DNA of 19,512 nucleotides from a virus (taxonomy: Duplodnaviria; Heunggongvirae; Uroviricota; Caudoviricetes). Location: IMG/VR virus record IMGVR_UViG_2617270991_000004; one strand, given 5' to 3'. Within the stretch, counting starts at the first letter, position 1. Each line of letters begins with the position of its first letter. The position numbers and the translations under genes are program-made. Shown piece after piece: positions 9,612-15,304 of this stretch. The notes under the pieces are model-generated. The model saw only the letters and a list, made by a program, of their open reading frames with translations. It made no database searches and had not been told where the DNA came from.

Positions 9612-10514
9612 AGTGCCTCCTCTGACATTACTGTTCAGCGCCGTGGCCATCACACTGATGGCATCCGACGCATTGATTAATTCATCCGCCAGCCCGGCCT
9701 CAATGCCGGACTGACCTTCAAAAACGGCGGCCTCTGTTCCCGTGACCGCATCCACAGACAACCCGGTATACATCGCCACTTTTTCGGCAAACATCCGGTG
9801 CGCCGCATCAATCCGCTGCTGCATATCCTGGCGAACCTCTGCCGGCAACGCTTCAAACTGATTGCCATCCACCTTGTGCGCCCCGGCATAAATCAGCGTG
9901 ATATCCACACCGGCCTGCGCCAGATGACCGGCATAGCTGACATGGCTCATCATCACGCCAATGGAGCCGATACGGGATGTCTGGGTAACCAGCCGTCGGG
10001 AGCAGGCCGACGCCAGCAGCATGGCTGCAGAACAGGCCGTGTCATTGCACAGTGCCCAGACCGGCTTCTGCTGACGGAGGCGGTAAATCATGTCAGCGCA
10101 GTCAAACGCGCCGGCGGCCTGCCCGCCCGGACTGTCAATGTCCAGCAGTATGCCCCGCACCTGGCTATCTGCCATTGCCTGCTGAAGACAGGCGACAATG
10201 CCGTCATAGCCAGTCATTCCGGAAAATGGCCGCATCCCCCCCAGCCGGTGCACCAGCGTGCCGCTCACCGGCAGTACCGCAATACCGTTCACCACCCGGT
10301 AAACACGGGCCGGTCGTTTACCTCCGGCCATGTACTCGTCCGTTTCAGCCAGCATTCCGGGAGCATCAAGCTGTACCTGCTGTTGTGGTACCGAAAGACT
10401 TGCTGCCCCCATCTCGCGCCCGAGCGCGCAAAAGAAAACCCGCGCATAGGCGGGCTCCAGAAGCAGCGGTTCATTGAATGCTGCGGCAATAATGTGTGAA
10501 AGATTACGTCTCAC
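9009..10514 (-). CDS. C: Head maturation protease / minor capsid protein C (S49/ClpP-like), with C-terminal scaffold region
   Basis: 501-aa ORF in the lambda C position. N-terminal half fits an S49 peptidase-like fold by position. C-terminal third holds three tandem repeats of about 37 aa. Confidence 0.88.
   Translation of the reverse strand: MRRNLSHIIAAAFNEPLLLEPAYARVFFCALGREMGAASLSVPQQQVQLDAPGMLAETDEYMAGGKRPARVYRVVNGIAVLPVSGTLVHRLGGMRPFSGMTGYDGIVACLQQAMADSQVRGILLDIDSPGGQAAGAFDCADMIYRLRQQKPVWALCNDTACSAAMLLASACSRRLVTQTSRIGSIGVMMSHVSYAGHLAQAGVDITLIYAGAHKVDGNQFEALPAEVRQDMQQRIDAAHRMFAEKVAMYTGLSVDAVTGTEAAVFEGQSGIEAGLADELINASDAISVMATALNSNVRGGTMPQLTATEAAVQENQRVMGILTCQEAKGREQLATMLAGQQGMSVEQARAILAAAAPQQPVASAQSEADRIMACEEANGREQLAVTLAAMPEMTVEKARPILAASPQANAGPSLRDQIMALDEAKGAEAQAEQLAACPGMTVESARAVLAAGSGKAEPVSASTTALFEHFMANHSPAAVQGGVSQASEDGDADVKMLMAMP
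9194..9563 (-). repeat. Three tandem in-frame repeats (about 111 bp, about 37 aa each) in the C/Nu3 scaffold region
   Basis: Repeated protein units .IM.C.EA.GREQLA..LA..P.M.VE.AR.ILAA.. are visible in the translation, with matching DNA repeats. Boundaries are approximate. Confidence 0.6.
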
Positions 10515-12096
10515 GTGGTGTTGTCTCCTCTTCCGGCCTGCGACTCTCCGCTATCTGCTGCTGATACGCCTGCGCTATCCACACCGGACGTGAGAGTCCG
10601 GCTTTTTCCCGCTCTGCAGATTCCCTGACCTGCTGGCGGAAAATGTCCTGATAATCCTCGCCCATCAGCGCCAGCTCTTTCTCATACGTGCTCAGTCCGG
10701 CCTCAATGCGCATCACTGATTCCTGAACCTCCTTGAGCCCGTCAATGGCCATTCTTCCGGCTCCAATCCACTCAGCCCGTGACCAGGCTGATCGCGCCTG
10801 ATAAAAATCAAAACGTGCCCGTGGCGGACGAATAATCCCCCGAAGAAGTGCCTCTTCCAGCCAGCAGGAAAACATCTGCGTGGCCAGCCGGGACGCAATA
10901 AATTTTCGCCGCCCCATAAAATAGCGCCACGACTCATTGGCGGAGGCGCGGGCACTTGAATAACTGACCTTCGAGTAATCACGGGACAACTGTTCGTAGG
11001 AAACGCCAAGACCGGCGGCGATATACCGCAGCAGCGCCTGTTCAAGCGCCGAAAATCCATTGTCTGAATCCTGCGCGGTCTGAAGTTTCAGATCATCACC
11101 GGGGAAAAGGTGCGGAATTTTGACACCGCCCAGCGTCACGTGATTCGTGTCATACCAGGTGGAGAACTTCTCCAGAATATTAATAAGCGGATTATCCTTC
11201 TGCCCCTGCGGCGCACCGGCGATATATTCAAAGGCCTTTTCGGTATCAAGTTCACTTTCAATCGTCGCTGCATACATCGCCTTCACTATGGCCGACTGAA
11301 GCTGTGTTGCCTGCAGGGAATCGAGCATCTTCAGCCGTTCCATGACGCTGTAAAACTGATTAGCCCCACGGGTCTGCCCGTCCTCCACCGGCTCGAAAAT
11401 ATGCAGCATGGCCGGACGCCCGGTGGGAAGTTCACGCGGGATCCGTTCCCATCGTCCACTACCAGAGAACGGAAAATCGTCCTCACAAATATGGTACGCG
11501 ACGGCACGGCCATATCGATCGACCTCCACACCGGCCCGCAGAAAACGGTTCCCCATACCGTGTCCATGCGTGTCCACCCGTTTCGGACTCACGGCTTTAA
11601 AACGCGTACGGAATAACTGCGTGGTTTCCGTATCCCAGACCGGCTGCACAAAGATTTCGCCGTTAAACGCATGAACGCCCACACCTTCACGGATAAATTC
11701 CGTGAACGTGCGTTTTCCTTCCACGTCGATCTCACCAAACATCCCTTCGGCGTATTCCGACCAGGCCGCCTCCACCTCATCGACAAAGCTTTTTGCTGCG
11801 GTCTCCCGCATCCCCAGCCAGCGCCAGTTCGGACGGTAGCTGATCAGAAACATATGCCCGACAATGTGATCCTTATGCAGAGCCACCGCATTAGCCGCTA
11901 TTCCGTTATTGCGCACCAGATCATCTGCCCGGGCATTCCCCAGACGCAACGCGGGTAGCAGGGCCGCATCGGCACTCTGCGCCGGTGGCAACCACTCCGC
12001 CATTTGCCCGCCAAATCCTGCGCCGCCCCCGTTGTAGCTGAGACTCTCACGAAGCGGAACGCCGTTCACATCAATCAGGACAGGCGTTCGTTTCAT
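10504..12096 (-). CDS. B: Portal protein B
   Basis: 530-aa ORF with long collinear matches to recalled lambda gpB (RGNARADDLVRNNG, FEPVEDGQTRGAN.FYSVME, LQSAIVKAMYAATIESELDT, LLRYIAAGLGVSYEQLSR, SYS.ARASANESW.YFMGRRKF, IGAGRMAIDGLKEVQE, AGLSTYEKE). Confidence 0.95.
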   Translation of the reverse strand: MKRTPVLIDVNGVPLRESLSYNGGGAGFGGQMAEWLPPAQSADAALLPALRLGNARADDLVRNNGIAANAVALHKDHIVGHMFLISYRPNWRWLGMRETAAKSFVDEVEAAWSEYAEGMFGEIDVEGKRTFTEFIREGVGVHAFNGEIFVQPVWDTETTQLFRTRFKAVSPKRVDTHGHGMGNRFLRAGVEVDRYGRAVAYHICEDDFPFSGSGRWERIPRELPTGRPAMLHIFEPVEDGQTRGANQFYSVMERLKMLDSLQATQLQSAIVKAMYAATIESELDTEKAFEYIAGAPQGQKDNPLINILEKFSTWYDTNHVTLGGVKIPHLFPGDDLKLQTAQDSDNGFSALEQALLRYIAAGLGVSYEQLSRDYSKVSYSSARASANESWRYFMGRRKFIASRLATQMFSCWLEEALLRGIIRPPRARFDFYQARSAWSRAEWIGAGRMAIDGLKEVQESVMRIEAGLSTYEKELALMGEDYQDIFRQQVRESAEREKAGLSRPVWIAQAYQQQIAESRRPEEETTPRET

Positions 12097-12299: not shown

Positions 12300-14211
12300 T
12301 CACTCCTCCGGACAGCTTCGCTGCCAGTTCTTTAAGGGTTGGCCGGGTCGTCTCTTCTTCCCGGGATTTTGCCAGTACAGCCAGATCAAGCTGCCAGCGT
12401 TGCACGGACACACGTAATGCCGCATAGGCATACACCAGGCAGTCCAGCGCTTCGTTACGCCGCTTTTTGTTATCCCACAGCAGACGCATCTTTCCTTTTT
12501 CCCACTTCTCCACAAGCTCTTCCGCGACCAGTTGCTGCGCCTCTGTCTGCGAAAAAATCTCCGGATCATCAGGAAAACGGATGGCATACGACGTGGCTTC
12601 ATCCGCAGGCGTGGGATCGGCTTTCATACGGGCATAGAGAATTTCTTTTGCGGTGTCCGTCCCCACTTCACACAGATACACGCCCCGCTGATTGCGGGTT
12701 TTCGGCATGGTGATCACCGGCTTGCCATAGACAGATGCGCCTTTTACCGGCAGCACCCGGAAAACACCGTGTTTTTTTGACCTCTGATAGACAATTTCAC
12801 CATCGATCCCCCCGGTGTCCCAGCAGACACGGGAAATGGTCATTTCGGTTCCGTCTGCATGGCAGTATTTTTTGTTGATCGCCGCATCCACACGTAACAG
12901 CGTCTCTTCCTCATCGGGACGGCCCATAATGATGATTTTATCCACCAGAAAAGCTTCCTCTCCCGGTGCCCATCCCCAGACATACATCTCAAAACGGTTT
13001 CGCTGCGAGTCAATGCCCGCCGTCAGATAAACCACCCGGGCTGGCACCGCCGCCGTGTAATGCACGACCTTATCCATCAGTACCTGGTGATCGAGTTTTT
13101 CGCCCACGGCCTCTTCCCAGGTCTCGCCCAGCGTGGTGTTCACAAAGGTTTTCAGGCCGTTGGGATCTTTCAGTGCATCCAGCCAGTCATAGACTATCTG
13201 TACCCAGGTGGTGAACGGACTGTACGCCGTCCAGATATGGAACGTGATGGAGCGCGGCGGCGGAATTTCATTATCCGCGGCGCTGAAAAACGTCAGACCG
13301 TCACGGGTCCACATCCCCGTGTTTTCACAGATCCACCGCCCGTTGCTCTGGTCAAGCTCAGACTGATGGATCACGCAGCCATGATGTTCACAGAGGTAGA
13401 AAACGCTTTCGGGGCTGTCCTTCTCCCATTTAAGGCCAAAAGGCGTGGATTCATCGCCAAATTTCAGATACTGCTCCTCCCCACAGTGTGGGCAGGGCAC
13501 ATAAAAACGCATGAAATGCGCCGACTCGTTGGCCGCTTTTTCGATCTGGCAGGTGCCTTTGATTTTAGGCGTCGAGCCGCGAATGGATTTGGGCCATACA
13601 GAGCCCTCAATACGTTTATCCCCAAGCAGGGTTGGCGAACCCTCTTTTTCGACATCCGGTTCGAACGAGGAAAGTTCGTCATAGCAGACCACGTCCACGG
13701 ATTTTTCACGGTAGTTTTTAGCGGCAGCCCCGCCCAGGCACCAGAAGCCCACGCCCGATGAAAAACGTTTCAGCGTGAGGGTATTATCACGATGTTTACG
13801 CCCAAACCACGGTGCAAGATCGAGTAAAACCGGCACATCCCTGATCGTGGGTTCCACATGAGATTTCATAAAATCTTCAGCAGCAGAATCCGTGGGCTGG
13901 AAAAGAAGGCTGTTGCGTGATTTATGCTCAATAAAATAAGCCTCCACTCCCAGCAACATCTTTGTATAACCAACACGGGCAGATTTAATCAGATTAACAG
14001 TGCGGATCCGGTCATTCCCCATGCTGTTCATGATGGCAACCTGAAACGGCAGTGTTTCCCACCGCCCCGGGGTGTAAGATGACTCTTTCGGAAGGTAATA
14101 ATGTCGATCTGCCCACTGAACTGTCGTCAGAGGGACAGGAATTTTTAGCGCAAGGAGGCCGGTTGCTATCGCTCCTGCAGAATTAGCCGCCCTCAGTTCG
14201 TCTGAAATCAT
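12283..14211 (-). CDS. A: Terminase large subunit A
   Basis: Collinear with recalled lambda gpA ([78 protein letters not shown]). Start set at ATG 14211, which gives the lambda-like length of 642 aa; the track ORF extends to an upstream ATG at 14253. Confidence 0.92.
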
Positions 14212-14731
14212 CAATCCACCTGCGCACATTCTCACCGGCTTCAGAAGCCACATCGGATGCTTTCGCGATTTCAGTTTTCACAGCATCAAGATGTACGGGT
14301 GATATATCAGGGTATTTACGCTGCAGTGTCTGAGGGACACGGACAAGGATCCCTGATATATTCTGTGCCACTCGCTGAAAGATGTAGGTAAATAACTCCG
14401 TCTCGAGGACAAGGCCTTCCTCACGAGCATTTTTCAGCTCCTGTGCATCGGCCTGTGCCTTCGTCAGTCGGTAACGTTCGTAATCAATGGTGCCGGGCTG
14501 AAGGTCTGATTCGCTGGCAGCCCTCAAATCCTCGATCTCTTTACGGAGTTTTTCGTTTTCAATATCAGCTTCCCTCTGCGCATACCACTGAATGGCAGCA
14601 GTTGTATCAAAAACTGATTCAGTCCCTTTCCCTCCACCAGAAACTAGTGGTAACCCCTGACTCTGCCAGGCGGTGATGGTCCTGACATCAACGCCAAAAA
14701 TATCGGCCAGTTTTTTCTTATTGACGTTCAT
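14183..14731 (-). CDS. Nu1: Terminase small subunit Nu1
   Basis: 182-aa ORF starting [36 protein letters not shown], close to recalled lambda Nu1 (winged-HTH N-terminus). cosB lies immediately upstream and the 3' end overlaps the start of A. Confidence 0.93.
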
Positions 14732-14744
14732 ACACTCCCCCGGG

Positions 14745-14866
14745 AACCAGAAAGGATCTGAAAATGGCGTTTTCTAACAAAAACAGCCTTTGTCAGATCC
14801 TTTTATATTTTTAAAATTCTATTGATAATCAATCAGTTAAAAAGAAGAAGAACGGATCTGATTTTT
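14745..14866 (-). promoter_or_regulatory. cosB: three terminase-binding R elements plus an IHF site
   Basis: Three copies of the core CAGATCC(K)TTYT: cores at 14754-14760 and 14854-14860 in one orientation, 14794-14800 inverted, mirroring lambda R1/R2/R3. Exact match to IHF consensus WATCAANNNNTTR at 14827-14839 between the second and third. Confidence 0.75.
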
Positions 14867-14900
14867 CCCTAAAAATTTTCATAAATAGCGAAAACCCGCG

Positions 14901-14912
14901 AGGTCGCCGCCC
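14901..14912 (-). other. cosN: 12-nt cohesive-end sequence (GGGCGGCGACCT on the minus strand)
   Basis: Plus-strand AGGTCGCCGCCC at 14901-14912 is the reverse complement of the lambda 12-nt cos overhang. The flanking sequence also closely matches the recalled lambda left and right ends. Confidence 0.9.
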
Positions 14913-15118
14913 CGTAACCGGTCGGATCGCCGGAAAGGACCCACGAAATGATAATGATTATCATCTATATAAGGTTTATCACAACATGTGTGTACGCCAT
15001 CAAACCACGAGAAATAATCAATTATGACGCAGGTATCGTATTAATTGATCTGCGTCAAATTAACGTAAAAGCAACTTCAGATAATACAAATCAGCAACAC
15101 TGAATATGGGGAAACATT

Positions 15119-15304
15119 ATGTCATCAAAGAACAGAACCCGCAGAACAACAACCCGCAACATCCGATTTCCAAACCAGATGATTGAACAAATTAACATCG
15201 CTCTTGATCTGAAAGGTTCAGGAAACTTTTCAGCGTGGGTTATTGAAGCCTGCAGAAGAAGGCTGTCAACAGAGAGTTCGGGTATGAATTACATAATTAA
15301 GTAA
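15119..15304 (+). CDS. Small YlcI/YnfO-like protein (DUF3950-type, possibly DNA-binding)
   Basis: 61-aa plus-strand ORF MSSKNRTRRTTTRNIRFPNQMIEQINIALDLKGSGNFSAWVIEACRRRL... with a GGGGA SD. Resembles from memory the small YlcI-type proteins found next to terminase genes in E. coli cryptic prophages. Opposite in orientation to the late genes. Confidence 0.6.
   Translation: MSSKNRTRRTTTRNIRFPNQMIEQINIALDLKGSGNFSAWVIEACRRRLSTESSGMNYIIK

What the first reader, a model, noticed from the sequence alone, without database searches (positions are those of the whole stretch)
14745..14912. Complete lambda-type cos site with a distinct R-element motif
The lambda 12-nt cohesive end is present exactly (14901-14912), so the packaging site looks intact. 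cosB has three copies of CAGATCC(K)TTYT arranged direct/inverted/direct around a perfect IHF consensus (14827-14839), the lambda R1/R2/R3/I1 layout. My recollection of the lambda R core is CGTTTCC-type; here it appears as GGATCTG/CAGATCC, which may reflect co-variation with a divergent Nu1 DNA-binding domain.
Basis: partly seen in the sequence, partly recalled or inferred. Interest (0 to 1): 0.4.

Follow-up and report, generated by a model that had tools for sequence, protein, structure and literature searches.

The report
Gifsy-1-type cos site in E. coli prophage
This is a complete lambda-style DNA-packaging site in an E. coli prophage whose three terminase-binding boxes read AGATCC instead of lambda's GTTTCC, the variant already known from Salmonella phage Gifsy-1, so it is real but ordinary.

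Summary

**What is there.** The window holds a lambdoid prophage in reverse orientation. Numbering from window 14912 as bp 1, the parts are:
- cosQ, GGGTCCT, 23 bases before bp 1
- lambda's exact cohesive end
- R3, CAGATCCGTTCT, bp 53-64, the exact position of lambda's CGTTTCCGTTCT
- a perfect IHF consensus at bp 74-86, the exact position annotated as I1 in phage 21
- an inverted R2 at bp 108-119
- R1 at bp 153-164
- a Nu1-family small terminase (TerS) starting at bp 182

**Closest relative.** The AGATCC core is the R motif of Salmonella phage Gifsy-1. The Feiss laboratory already lists Gifsy-1's cosB as a three-R-plus-IHF site. The Gifsy-1 TerS DNA-binding domain is in the PDB as 7LXS.

**Co-variation.** The TerS recognition helix here is RTITAWQS. 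Gifsy-1 has RTVTAWQS, lambda RTIQNWQE and phage 21 RTIERWQS. In about 85 cos loci, R core and helix type co-vary without exception.

**Conservation.** Across 24 distinct cosB sequences of this class, R2 and R1 stay 88-92% identical while the spacers fall to 45-55%.

**Spread.** 223 of 5426 complete E. coli genomes carry this cosB, and none annotates it.

**Open.** Whether the packaging specificity differs from lambda and 21 is untested.

The parts
14936..14942 (-). cosQ (GGGTCCT), the packaging-termination subsite. It lies 23 bases upstream of cohesive-end bp 1.
   Evidence: It aligns exactly with lambda's right end and with the cosQ annotated in phage 21 (OL657228 42902-42908). It is conserved upstream of 22 of the 24 distinct cosBs of this class; the Providencia-type pair L217/L224 reads AAGGTACT there.
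14896..14917 (-). cosN. The 12-nt cohesive-end sequence GGGCGGCGACCT is at 14912..14901 and sits within TTACG|...|CGCGG, which is identical to lambda and 21.
   Evidence: Single exact match. Bp 1-41 are 100% identical to lambda.
14863..14895 (-). I2 segment (bp 18-50), the AT-rich spacer between cosN and R3.
   Evidence: Position taken from PMC4856287 Fig 1 legend. It has 0.79 mean pairwise identity within the class.
14848..14863 (-). cosB R3 (bp 50-65 by the lambda convention). The core CAGATCCGTTCT is at 14860..14849, which is bp 53-64.
   Evidence: It has the same coordinates as the lambda core CGTTTCCGTTCT and differs from it only at bp 54-56.
14827..14839 (+). cosB I1, the IHF site AATCAATCAGTTA. 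It is a perfect WATCAANNNNTTR match and is preceded by an AT-rich tract.
   Evidence: It equals bp 74-86, the coordinates annotated as I1 in phage 21.
14794..14805 (+). cosB R2 (CAGATCCTTTTA), inverted relative to R3 and R1. It covers bp 108-119.
   Evidence: The block AAAGGATCTG is near-invariant in 24 class members.
14749..14760 (-). cosB R1 (CAGATCCTTTCT), bp 153-164.
   Evidence: The block AGATCCTTTC is invariant in 24 class members.
14183..14731 (-). Small terminase subunit TerS (Nu1 family, 182 aa). Its ATG is at bp 182.
   Evidence: Pfam Phage_Nu1 at 1.6e-86. Annotated as terminase small subunit in RefSeq genomes.
14660..14683 (-). TerS recognition helix, residues 17-24: RTITAWQS.
   Evidence: Alignment with Gifsy-1, lambda and 21. 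The helix extent of residues 17-24 is from PMC9026076.
12283..14211 (-). Large terminase subunit TerL (gpA family). The start follows RefSeq; the open frame extends to 14253.
   Evidence: Pfam GpA_ATPase and GpA_nuclease. RefSeq annotation.

Best explanation
The region is the complete cohesive-end packaging site (cosQ-cosN-I2-R3-I1-R2-R1) of a lambda-like E. coli prophage. It belongs to the cosB/TerS recognition class typified by Salmonella phage Gifsy-1.

**Mechanism, inferred by homology with lambda:**
1. Dimers of the TerS winged-helix domain, with recognition helix RTITAWQS, bind the three AGATCC(K)TTC boxes.
2. IHF bends the DNA at I1, so that R3 and the inverted R2 face each other.
3. 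This anchors TerL about 47 bp away at cosN.
4. TerL makes staggered nicks that give the 12-nt end GGGCGGCGACCT.
5. Packaging then proceeds toward the terminase and head genes, which is toward lower window coordinates.
6. It ends at the next cos, and that step needs cosQ.

The AGATCC core replaces lambda's GTTTCC at bp 54-56 of each box. The helix differs at residues 20, 21 and 24. The pair therefore most likely has a packaging specificity different from lambda and 21.

**Shown:** sequence, positions, conservation and co-variation.
**Inferred:** binding, cutting and specificity.
For: - **Layout.** All subsites lie at lambda/21 coordinates.
- **Gifsy-1.** It carries the same R core in the same layout.
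- **Conservation.** In 24 distinct cosBs from at least 6 lineages, R2 has 0.88 and R1 has 0.92 mean pairwise identity, against 0.45-0.55 for spacers. R2 and R1 were not used to find these loci.
- **Helix.** Every one of these loci encodes a TerS with helix RT[IV][TS][ATG]WQ[SN].
- **Co-variation.** In a sample selected only by cosN, R3 core and helix class co-vary with no exception: lambda about 65 loci, 21 type 11, PhiR5_1 type 2, this type 3.
- **Concerted change.** Within each class all three boxes carry the class-specific core. Linkage alone does not explain that.
- **Proteins.** TerS and TerL are intact members of the Nu1 and gpA families. The head and tail module is complete in an identical prophage.
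- **Known determinants.** R3 bp 56, 58 and 59 and TerS residues 20 and 24 determine lambda/21 specificity (PMC4669245, PMC9026076).
Against: - There is no experimental evidence here for binding, nicking or packaging.
- The specificity of the Gifsy-1 class has not been reported as tested in the papers I could search.
- R3 bp 57-69, including the critical bp 58 and 59, are identical to lambda. N15 terminase is known to package lambda DNA despite a divergent R3 (PMC4669245). Partial cross-specificity with lambda is therefore possible.
- Co-variation of adjacent elements is partly expected from linkage.
- No isolated E. coli phage with this cosB is in the phage collection.
Confidence: 0.82

Rival explanations
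1. The cos architecture is the same, but the packaging specificity is not separate. The AGATCC boxes would be recognised well by lambda-type terminase, or this TerS would recognise lambda's boxes. It would then be a sequence variant within lambda specificity rather than a further class.
For: - R3 bp 57-69 are identical to lambda, including bp 58 and 59.
Against: - Bp 56, a critical contact of lambda Glu24, is changed from T to A.
- Residue 24 is Ser, as in phage 21, and residues 20-21 are Thr-Ala against lambda's Gln-Asn.
- All three boxes carry the same change.
- No locus in about 85 mixes helix class and R class.
Confidence: 0.2
2. The site is an inactive relic in a defective prophage. It is conserved only because the prophage was acquired recently.
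For: - No isolated phage with this exact cos is deposited.
- The identical prophage in strain 266917_2 has an IS4-family insertion and two partial genes in the late region.
Against: - TerS, TerL and the whole head-tail module are open and full length.
- The boxes are conserved across deeply diverged lineages from Salmonella, Escherichia and Providencia while the spacers are not. That pattern indicates purifying selection on the boxes.
Confidence: 0.1
3. The three repeats are chance matches, or they are operators for some other regulator and are unrelated to packaging.
For: Two weak sigma-70-like promoter matches overlap R2 and I1, though the count is no higher than in shuffles.
Against: - 0 of 200 shuffles give three matches.
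- The positions coincide with R3, R2 and R1 of lambda and 21 to within 0-2 bp.
- The boxes are conserved in 24 homologous cos sites.
Confidence: 0.02

Closest known systems
cos of Salmonella phage Gifsy-1 (NC_010392) and its TerS (DNA-binding domain in PDB 7LXS)
   Same: - R core AGATCC in all three boxes.
- R3 core CAGATCCGTTCTTCTT identical, at bp 53.
- R2 inverted, with an IHF-type site between R3 and R2.
- Recognition helix RTVTAWQS against RTITAWQS here.
- DNA-binding domain 84% identical.
   Different: - The cohesive end differs: Gifsy-1 has GGGCGGCAGCGT and this site has lambda's GGGCGGCGACCT.
- The spacers are diverged, at about 73% identity overall.
- I1 here is a perfect IHF consensus, while Gifsy-1's is weak.
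- The TerS C-terminus here is 21-like (79% identical over residues 141-182, against 50% for Gifsy-1).
- The TerS ATG is at bp 182 here and bp 186 in Gifsy-1.
cos of phage lambda (NC_001416)
   Same: - cosQ, cosN and bp 1-41 are identical.
- The R3 core is at the same bp 53-64, and bp 57-69 are identical.
- Same R3-I1-R2-R1 order and orientation.
- Nu1/gpA-family terminase.
   Different: - The R core is CAGATCC, where lambda has CGTTTCC (bp 54-56 in R3).
- The helix is RTITAWQS, where lambda has RTIQNWQE.
- The DNA-binding domain is only 60% identical.
- The ATG is at bp 182, where lambda's is at bp 191.
cos of phage 21 (OL657228), the classical second packaging specificity
   Same: - cosQ and cosN are identical.
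- I1 has the same coordinates.
- Ser24 in the helix.
- The TerS core and C-terminus are most similar (89% and 79%), and TerS is 82% identical overall.
   Different: - The R core in 21 is CGTGTCGG/CATGTCGG, and the helix is RTIERWQS.
- Bp 59 here is C, as in lambda, not G as in 21.
Phage N15 and the Monarch prophage (third tested specificity)
   Same: Lambda-like cohesive ends and cosQ. Monarch has a tripartite cosB (PMC4669245).
   Different: [quoted passage not shown]

Membership tests
Lambda-type cos site | 12-nt 5' cohesive-end sequence with flanking two-fold symmetry (cosN) | tested here: met
   Exact GGGCGGCGACCT within TTACG...CGCGG, identical to lambda and 21.
Lambda-type cos site | cosQ heptamer GGGTCCT about 23 bp upstream of the nick site | tested here: met
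   At 14936-14942. It aligns with the annotated cosQ of phage 21 and with lambda.
Lambda-type cos site | Complex cosB: R3, I1 (IHF), inverted R2 and R1, with R3 about 47 bp from the nick | tested here: met
   R3 core at bp 53-64, I1 at bp 74-86, R2 inverted at bp 108-119, R1 at bp 153-164.
Lambda-type cos site | Adjacent Nu1-family TerS and gpA-family TerL genes reading away from cosN | tested here: met
   Pfam Phage_Nu1 at 1.6e-86; GpA_ATPase and GpA_nuclease.
Lambda-type cos site | Terminase actually nicks here and virion DNA ends at this site | not testable with these tools
   Needs virion DNA end mapping or an in vitro cos-cleavage assay.
Gifsy-1 cosB/TerS recognition class | All three R boxes carry the AGATCC(K)TTC core | tested here: met
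   The cores are identical to those of Gifsy-1 and of 24 class members.
Gifsy-1 cosB/TerS recognition class | TerS recognition helix of the type RT(I/V)TAWQS (Thr20, Ala21, Ser24) | tested here: met
   RTITAWQS. 7LXS and Gifsy-1 have RTVTAWQS.
Gifsy-1 cosB/TerS recognition class | Gifsy-1-type cohesive end (GGGCGGCAGCGT) | tested here: not met
   The window has lambda's cohesive end. Within the class cosN varies, with at least 5 variants, so this is not a class-defining feature.
Lambda packaging-specificity class | R core CGTTTCC with TerS helix RTIQNWQ(E/D) | tested here: not met
   The core is CAGATCC and the helix is RTITAWQS.
Phage 21 packaging-specificity class | R core C(G/A)TGTCGG with TerS helix RTIERWQS | tested here: not met

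The most novel reading that the evidence does not exclude
The AGATCC-box cosB and RT(I/V)TAWQS TerS pair may be a fourth packaging specificity among lambda-like phages, functionally distinct and not yet tested, after lambda, 21 and N15. Here it occurs naturally joined to lambda/21-type cosQ-cosN and a 21-like TerS C-terminus and TerL. That makes it a natural counterpart of the laboratory lambda-21 hybrids. It differs from lambda's R3 at only bp 54-56, so it would give a minimal system for reading the helix-to-base recognition code (residues 20, 21 and 24 against bp 54-56).
Probability: 0.6. Interest if true: 0.3.

Novelty: new member of a known kind. Interest (0 to 1): 0.2.

Why it matters
- **Cross-packaging.** Packaging specificity decides which co-resident lambdoid prophages, cosmids and satellites a terminase can encapsidate, and so which DNA is mobilised. 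About 4% of complete E. coli genomes carry this cosB class, and none of them annotates it.
- **Practical use.** Knowing the class helps predict cross-packaging among prophages, choose helper phages and annotate prophage ends.
- **Recognition code.** This R3 differs from lambda's at only three adjacent base pairs, so it is a convenient natural variant for dissecting TerS-DNA recognition.
- **Conceptually.** It adds nothing beyond what is established for lambda, 21 and N15.

Tried and rejected
- **Genome-contig scan with a TerS alignment.** Many were lambda DNA on short contigs of unrelated taxa. It was useful only for the Providencia locus L006.
- **Phage IdasGreatGrand.** It looked like the closest E. 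coli phage by megablast but proved to be 21-type, with CATGTCGG and RTIERWQS.
- **Sippy et al. 2015 (PMC5006951).** The primary genetics paper on contacts and clashes is not held. The residue and base-pair assignments are taken from the two later Feiss papers.
- **A paper for PDB 7LXS, 7LWR and 7LW0.** None was found. One review lists 7LW0 as lambda TerL in a table, although the PDB's own molecule name for that chain is 'Terminase small subunit' and its sequence matches the lambda TerS N-terminus.
- **The 14-mer R3 scan of IMG/VR.** Most hits were chance matches, and only 38 had a cos and TerS context after filtering.
- **A promoter or operator role for the repeats.** The promoter-like matches are no more frequent than in shuffles.
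- **Recent recombination.** I considered that the site is a recent lambda x Gifsy-1 recombinant. Identities of 73-78% to Gifsy-1 and 21 argue for an old lineage rather than a recent mosaic.

Full report
**1. Checking the observation**

The window carries a lambda-like prophage in reverse orientation, so cos has to be read on the - strand.

- The lambda cohesive-end sequence GGGCGGCGACCT occurs once, exactly, at 14912..14901.
- The proposed repeat CAGATCCKTTYT, with up to 1 mismatch, hits three times: 14749-14760 (-), 14794-14805 (+, last base differs) and 14849-14860 (-).
- The shorter core AGATCCKTT gives the same three sites and nothing else in 19.5 kb. 0.28 hits are expected, and 0 of 200 shuffles reach three.
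- A generic repeat finder recovers the same direct and inverted relationships on its own.
- The IHF consensus WATCAANNNNTTR is matched perfectly at 14827-14839.

**2. Position-by-position comparison with lambda and 21**

| Subsite | This window | Lambda | Phage 21 |
|---|---|---|---|
| R3 core | bp 53-64, CAGATCCGTTCT | bp 53-64, CGTTTCCGTTCT | bp 53-64, CGTGTCGGTACT |
| I1 (IHF) | bp 74-86 | not annotated in the record used | bp 74-86 (annotated) |
| R2 core (inverted) | bp 108-119 | bp 109-120 | bp 107-122 (annotated box) |
| R1 core | bp 153-164 | bp 155-166 | bp 150-166 (annotated box) |
| TerS ATG | bp 182 | bp 191 | bp 189 |

Further points:

- Bp 1-41 are 100% identical to lambda.
- Upstream, GGGTCCT at 14942..14936 aligns with lambda's right end and with the cosQ annotated in phage 21. 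It has the same 23-base distance to the nick.
- The adjacent genes are a Nu1-family TerS (Pfam 1.6e-86) and a gpA-family TerL.
- They are followed by a complete lambda-type head and tail module.

The site is therefore a complete lambda-type cos.

**3. What the 'distinct' R motif is**

A distant DNA search of deposited phages put Salmonella phage Gifsy-1 first, at 73% identity over cosB plus TerS. Gifsy-1's left end reads as follows:

- R3: CAGATCCGTTCTTCTT at bp 53
- R2: an inverted AAAGGATCTG
- R1: GCAGATCCTTTCC

This is the same motif in the same layout. Only the cohesive end differs (GGGCGGCAGCGT), and the literature gives exactly those differences: positions 8, 9 and 11 (PMC4669245).

[quoted passage not shown] It has also published an alignment of bp 1-70 of N15, lambda, 21 and Gifsy-1 with R3 marked (PMC4856287, Fig 1B legend).

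The PDB holds three matching entries:

- 7LXS, a 55-residue chain named 'Terminase, small subunit', is identical to Gifsy-1 TerS residues 1-55 and 84% identical to the window's.
- 7LWR is the matching domain of phage 21.
- 7LW0 is the matching domain of lambda.

The motif is therefore a known variant.

**4. The cognate protein**

The window's TerS recognition helix (residues 17-24, extent from PMC9026076) compares as follows:

| Source | Helix |
|---|---|
| This window | RTITAWQS |
| Gifsy-1 | RTVTAWQS |
| Lambda | RTIQNWQE |
| Phage 21 | RTIERWQS |

Residues 20 and 24, and R3 bp 56, 58 and 59, are the determinants genetically implicated in lambda/21 discrimination. Lambda Glu24 contacts T:A at bp 56 and clashes with G:C at bp 56 of phage 21 (PMC4669245, PMC9026076). 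Here:

- Residue 20 is Thr, residue 21 is Ala and residue 24 is Ser.
- Bp 56 is A.
- Bp 58 and 59 are as in lambda.

The protein is modular in its affinities:

| TerS segment | vs Gifsy-1 | vs phage 21 | vs lambda |
|---|---|---|---|
| DNA-binding domain, residues 1-55 | 84% | 73% | 60% |
| Residues 141-182 (C-terminal, TerL-binding part per PMC9026076) | 50% | 79% | 24% |

**5. Co-variation and conservation across related loci**

*Sample chosen only by cosN.* I scanned IMG/VR for GGGCGGCGACCTCGCGG and tabulated the R3 core against the helix of the downstream Nu1-like ORF:

| R3 core | Helix | Loci |
|---|---|---|
| xxTTTCCGTTCT | RTIQNWQ(E/D) | about 65 |
| C(G/A)TGTCGGTACT | RTIERWQS | 11 |
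| CATGTCAGTTCT | RTIDRWQT | 2 |
| CAGATCCGTTCT | RTITAWQS | 3 |

There are no mixed cases.

*Sample chosen by the R3 14-mer.* A second scan with this R3 gave, after filtering for cos context, 38 loci and 24 distinct cosBs from at least six diverged lineages. These include a Providencia type, confirmed in P. alcalifaciens DSM 30120. Among nine lineage representatives:

| Segment | Mean pairwise identity |
|---|---|
| R2 (not used for selection) | 0.88 |
| R1 (not used for selection) | 0.92 |
| I1 | 0.76 |
| Spacers | 0.43-0.55 |

All of these loci encode helices of the form RT[IV][TS][ATG]WQ[SN]. cosN varies within the class, with at least five variants.

*How much this proves.* Linkage alone would produce some co-variation between a helix and a site 130 bp away. 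Linkage does not explain two things:

- All three boxes in each class carry the same class-specific core.
- The boxes are islands of conservation in diverged spacers.

Both points indicate selection for recognition by the cognate TerS.

**6. Mechanism**

By homology with lambda, the steps are as follows (established knowledge summarised in PMC9026076 and PMC4856287):

1. [quoted passage not shown] R1 plays an accessory role.
2. This positions TerL to nick cosN about 47 bp from R3, giving 12-nt 5' ends.
3. Translocation proceeds toward Nu1, A and the head genes, which here means toward lower window coordinates.
4. Packaging terminates at the next cos and requires cosQ.

The sequence anatomy, positions, conservation and co-variation are shown here. 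Binding, cutting and specificity are inferred.

On specificity, I judge a specificity distinct from lambda and 21 to be more likely than not, at about 0.6. Bp 56 and residues 20, 21 and 24 are all changed, in all three boxes. However, the identity of bp 57-69 with lambda, and the precedent of N15 terminase packaging lambda DNA, leave asymmetric cross-packaging open.

**7. Distribution and novelty**

- The 139-bp cosB is present at 90% identity or more in 223 of 5426 complete E. coli genomes. No feature is annotated under it.
- The 938-bp cos-TerS segment is 100% identical in several human and environmental isolates.
- Among 50,697 deposited phage records, only Gifsy-1 and the partial prophage SerU-LTIIb carry this class.

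This is therefore a new E. coli member of a known variant class, with lambda's cosN. It is a useful annotation, but it would not surprise a specialist.

**8. Verdict**

Novelty is low: it is a new member of a known kind. Interest is 0.2. The only open question of some interest is whether the Gifsy-1 class is a fourth packaging specificity, and standard helper-packaging assays can test that directly.

Noticed in passing
window 14949-14963: A perfect 15-bp palindrome, TGATAATCATTATCA, lies between cosQ and the ylcI-like gene. It is conserved in lambda's right end (GATGATAATCATTATCAC) and less so in phage 21. From memory, it resembles the core of the Fur-box consensus (GATAATGATAATCATTATC). A 9-nt copy, TGATAATCA, also overlaps I1 at 14823-14831.
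   Followed up: partly
L040 4192-4727; L044 3797-4675; L057 2364-3242 (IMG/VR contigs): Three viral contigs each carry two lambda-type cosN sequences in convergent orientation, 0.5-0.9 kb apart. One copy is followed by N15/Monarch-like or 21-like R boxes. At the one locus read (L040) the other copy is followed by a different triple repeat (ATGTCCGGTT / AACCGGACAT x2), with no Nu1-like ORF within 330 nt. The R3-position core of that repeat, GTCCGGTTTCTC, occurs at 17 of the cosN-selected loci. It may be a satellite or PICI-type cos.
   Followed up: partly
L013, L014, L015, L016, L017, L021 (genome contigs): Short contigs carrying a lambda-type Nu1 whose first 30 residues are identical to lambda's appear in assemblies of unrelated taxa: Kitasatospora, Chromatium, Paenibacillus, Pseudomonas, a Chromatiales MAG and Bradyrhizobium. 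One of them (L017) also carries lambda's cosN and R3. This is almost certainly lambda DNA contamination of the sequencing libraries.
   Followed up: no
L002 (Escherichia phage PhiR5_1) 1489-1680: A further cosB/TerS variant related to phage 21. Its R3 core is CATGTCAGTTCT, its other boxes have GACATC/CATGTCG cores, and its helix is RTIDRWQT. It may be a sub-class of 21 specificity.
   Followed up: no
window 14183-14731 (-): TerS shows modular affinities. Its DNA-binding domain is closest to Gifsy-1 (84%). Its core and C-terminal part (the TerL-binding part, per PMC9026076) are closest to phage 21 (89% and 79%). This fits exchange of the cosB plus DNA-binding-domain module independently of the rest of the terminase.
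   Followed up: yes
window 15119-15304 (+): A 61-aa YlcI/YnfO-family (DUF3950) gene reads away from cos on the opposite strand from the terminase genes. The first-pass megablast showed that the DNA on this non-terminase side of cosN is about 89% identical to lambda. The gene's function is unknown.
   Followed up: no
L275 (E. coli 266917_2 prophage) 9846-11801 and 13482-13731: The identical prophage in this strain has an IS4-like ISVsa5 insertion next to a WYL-domain gene downstream of Q. It also has three tRNA genes (Ile, Arg, Arg) and a DUF6645 gene in the late region, as in Stx-type lambdoid phages.
   Followed up: no
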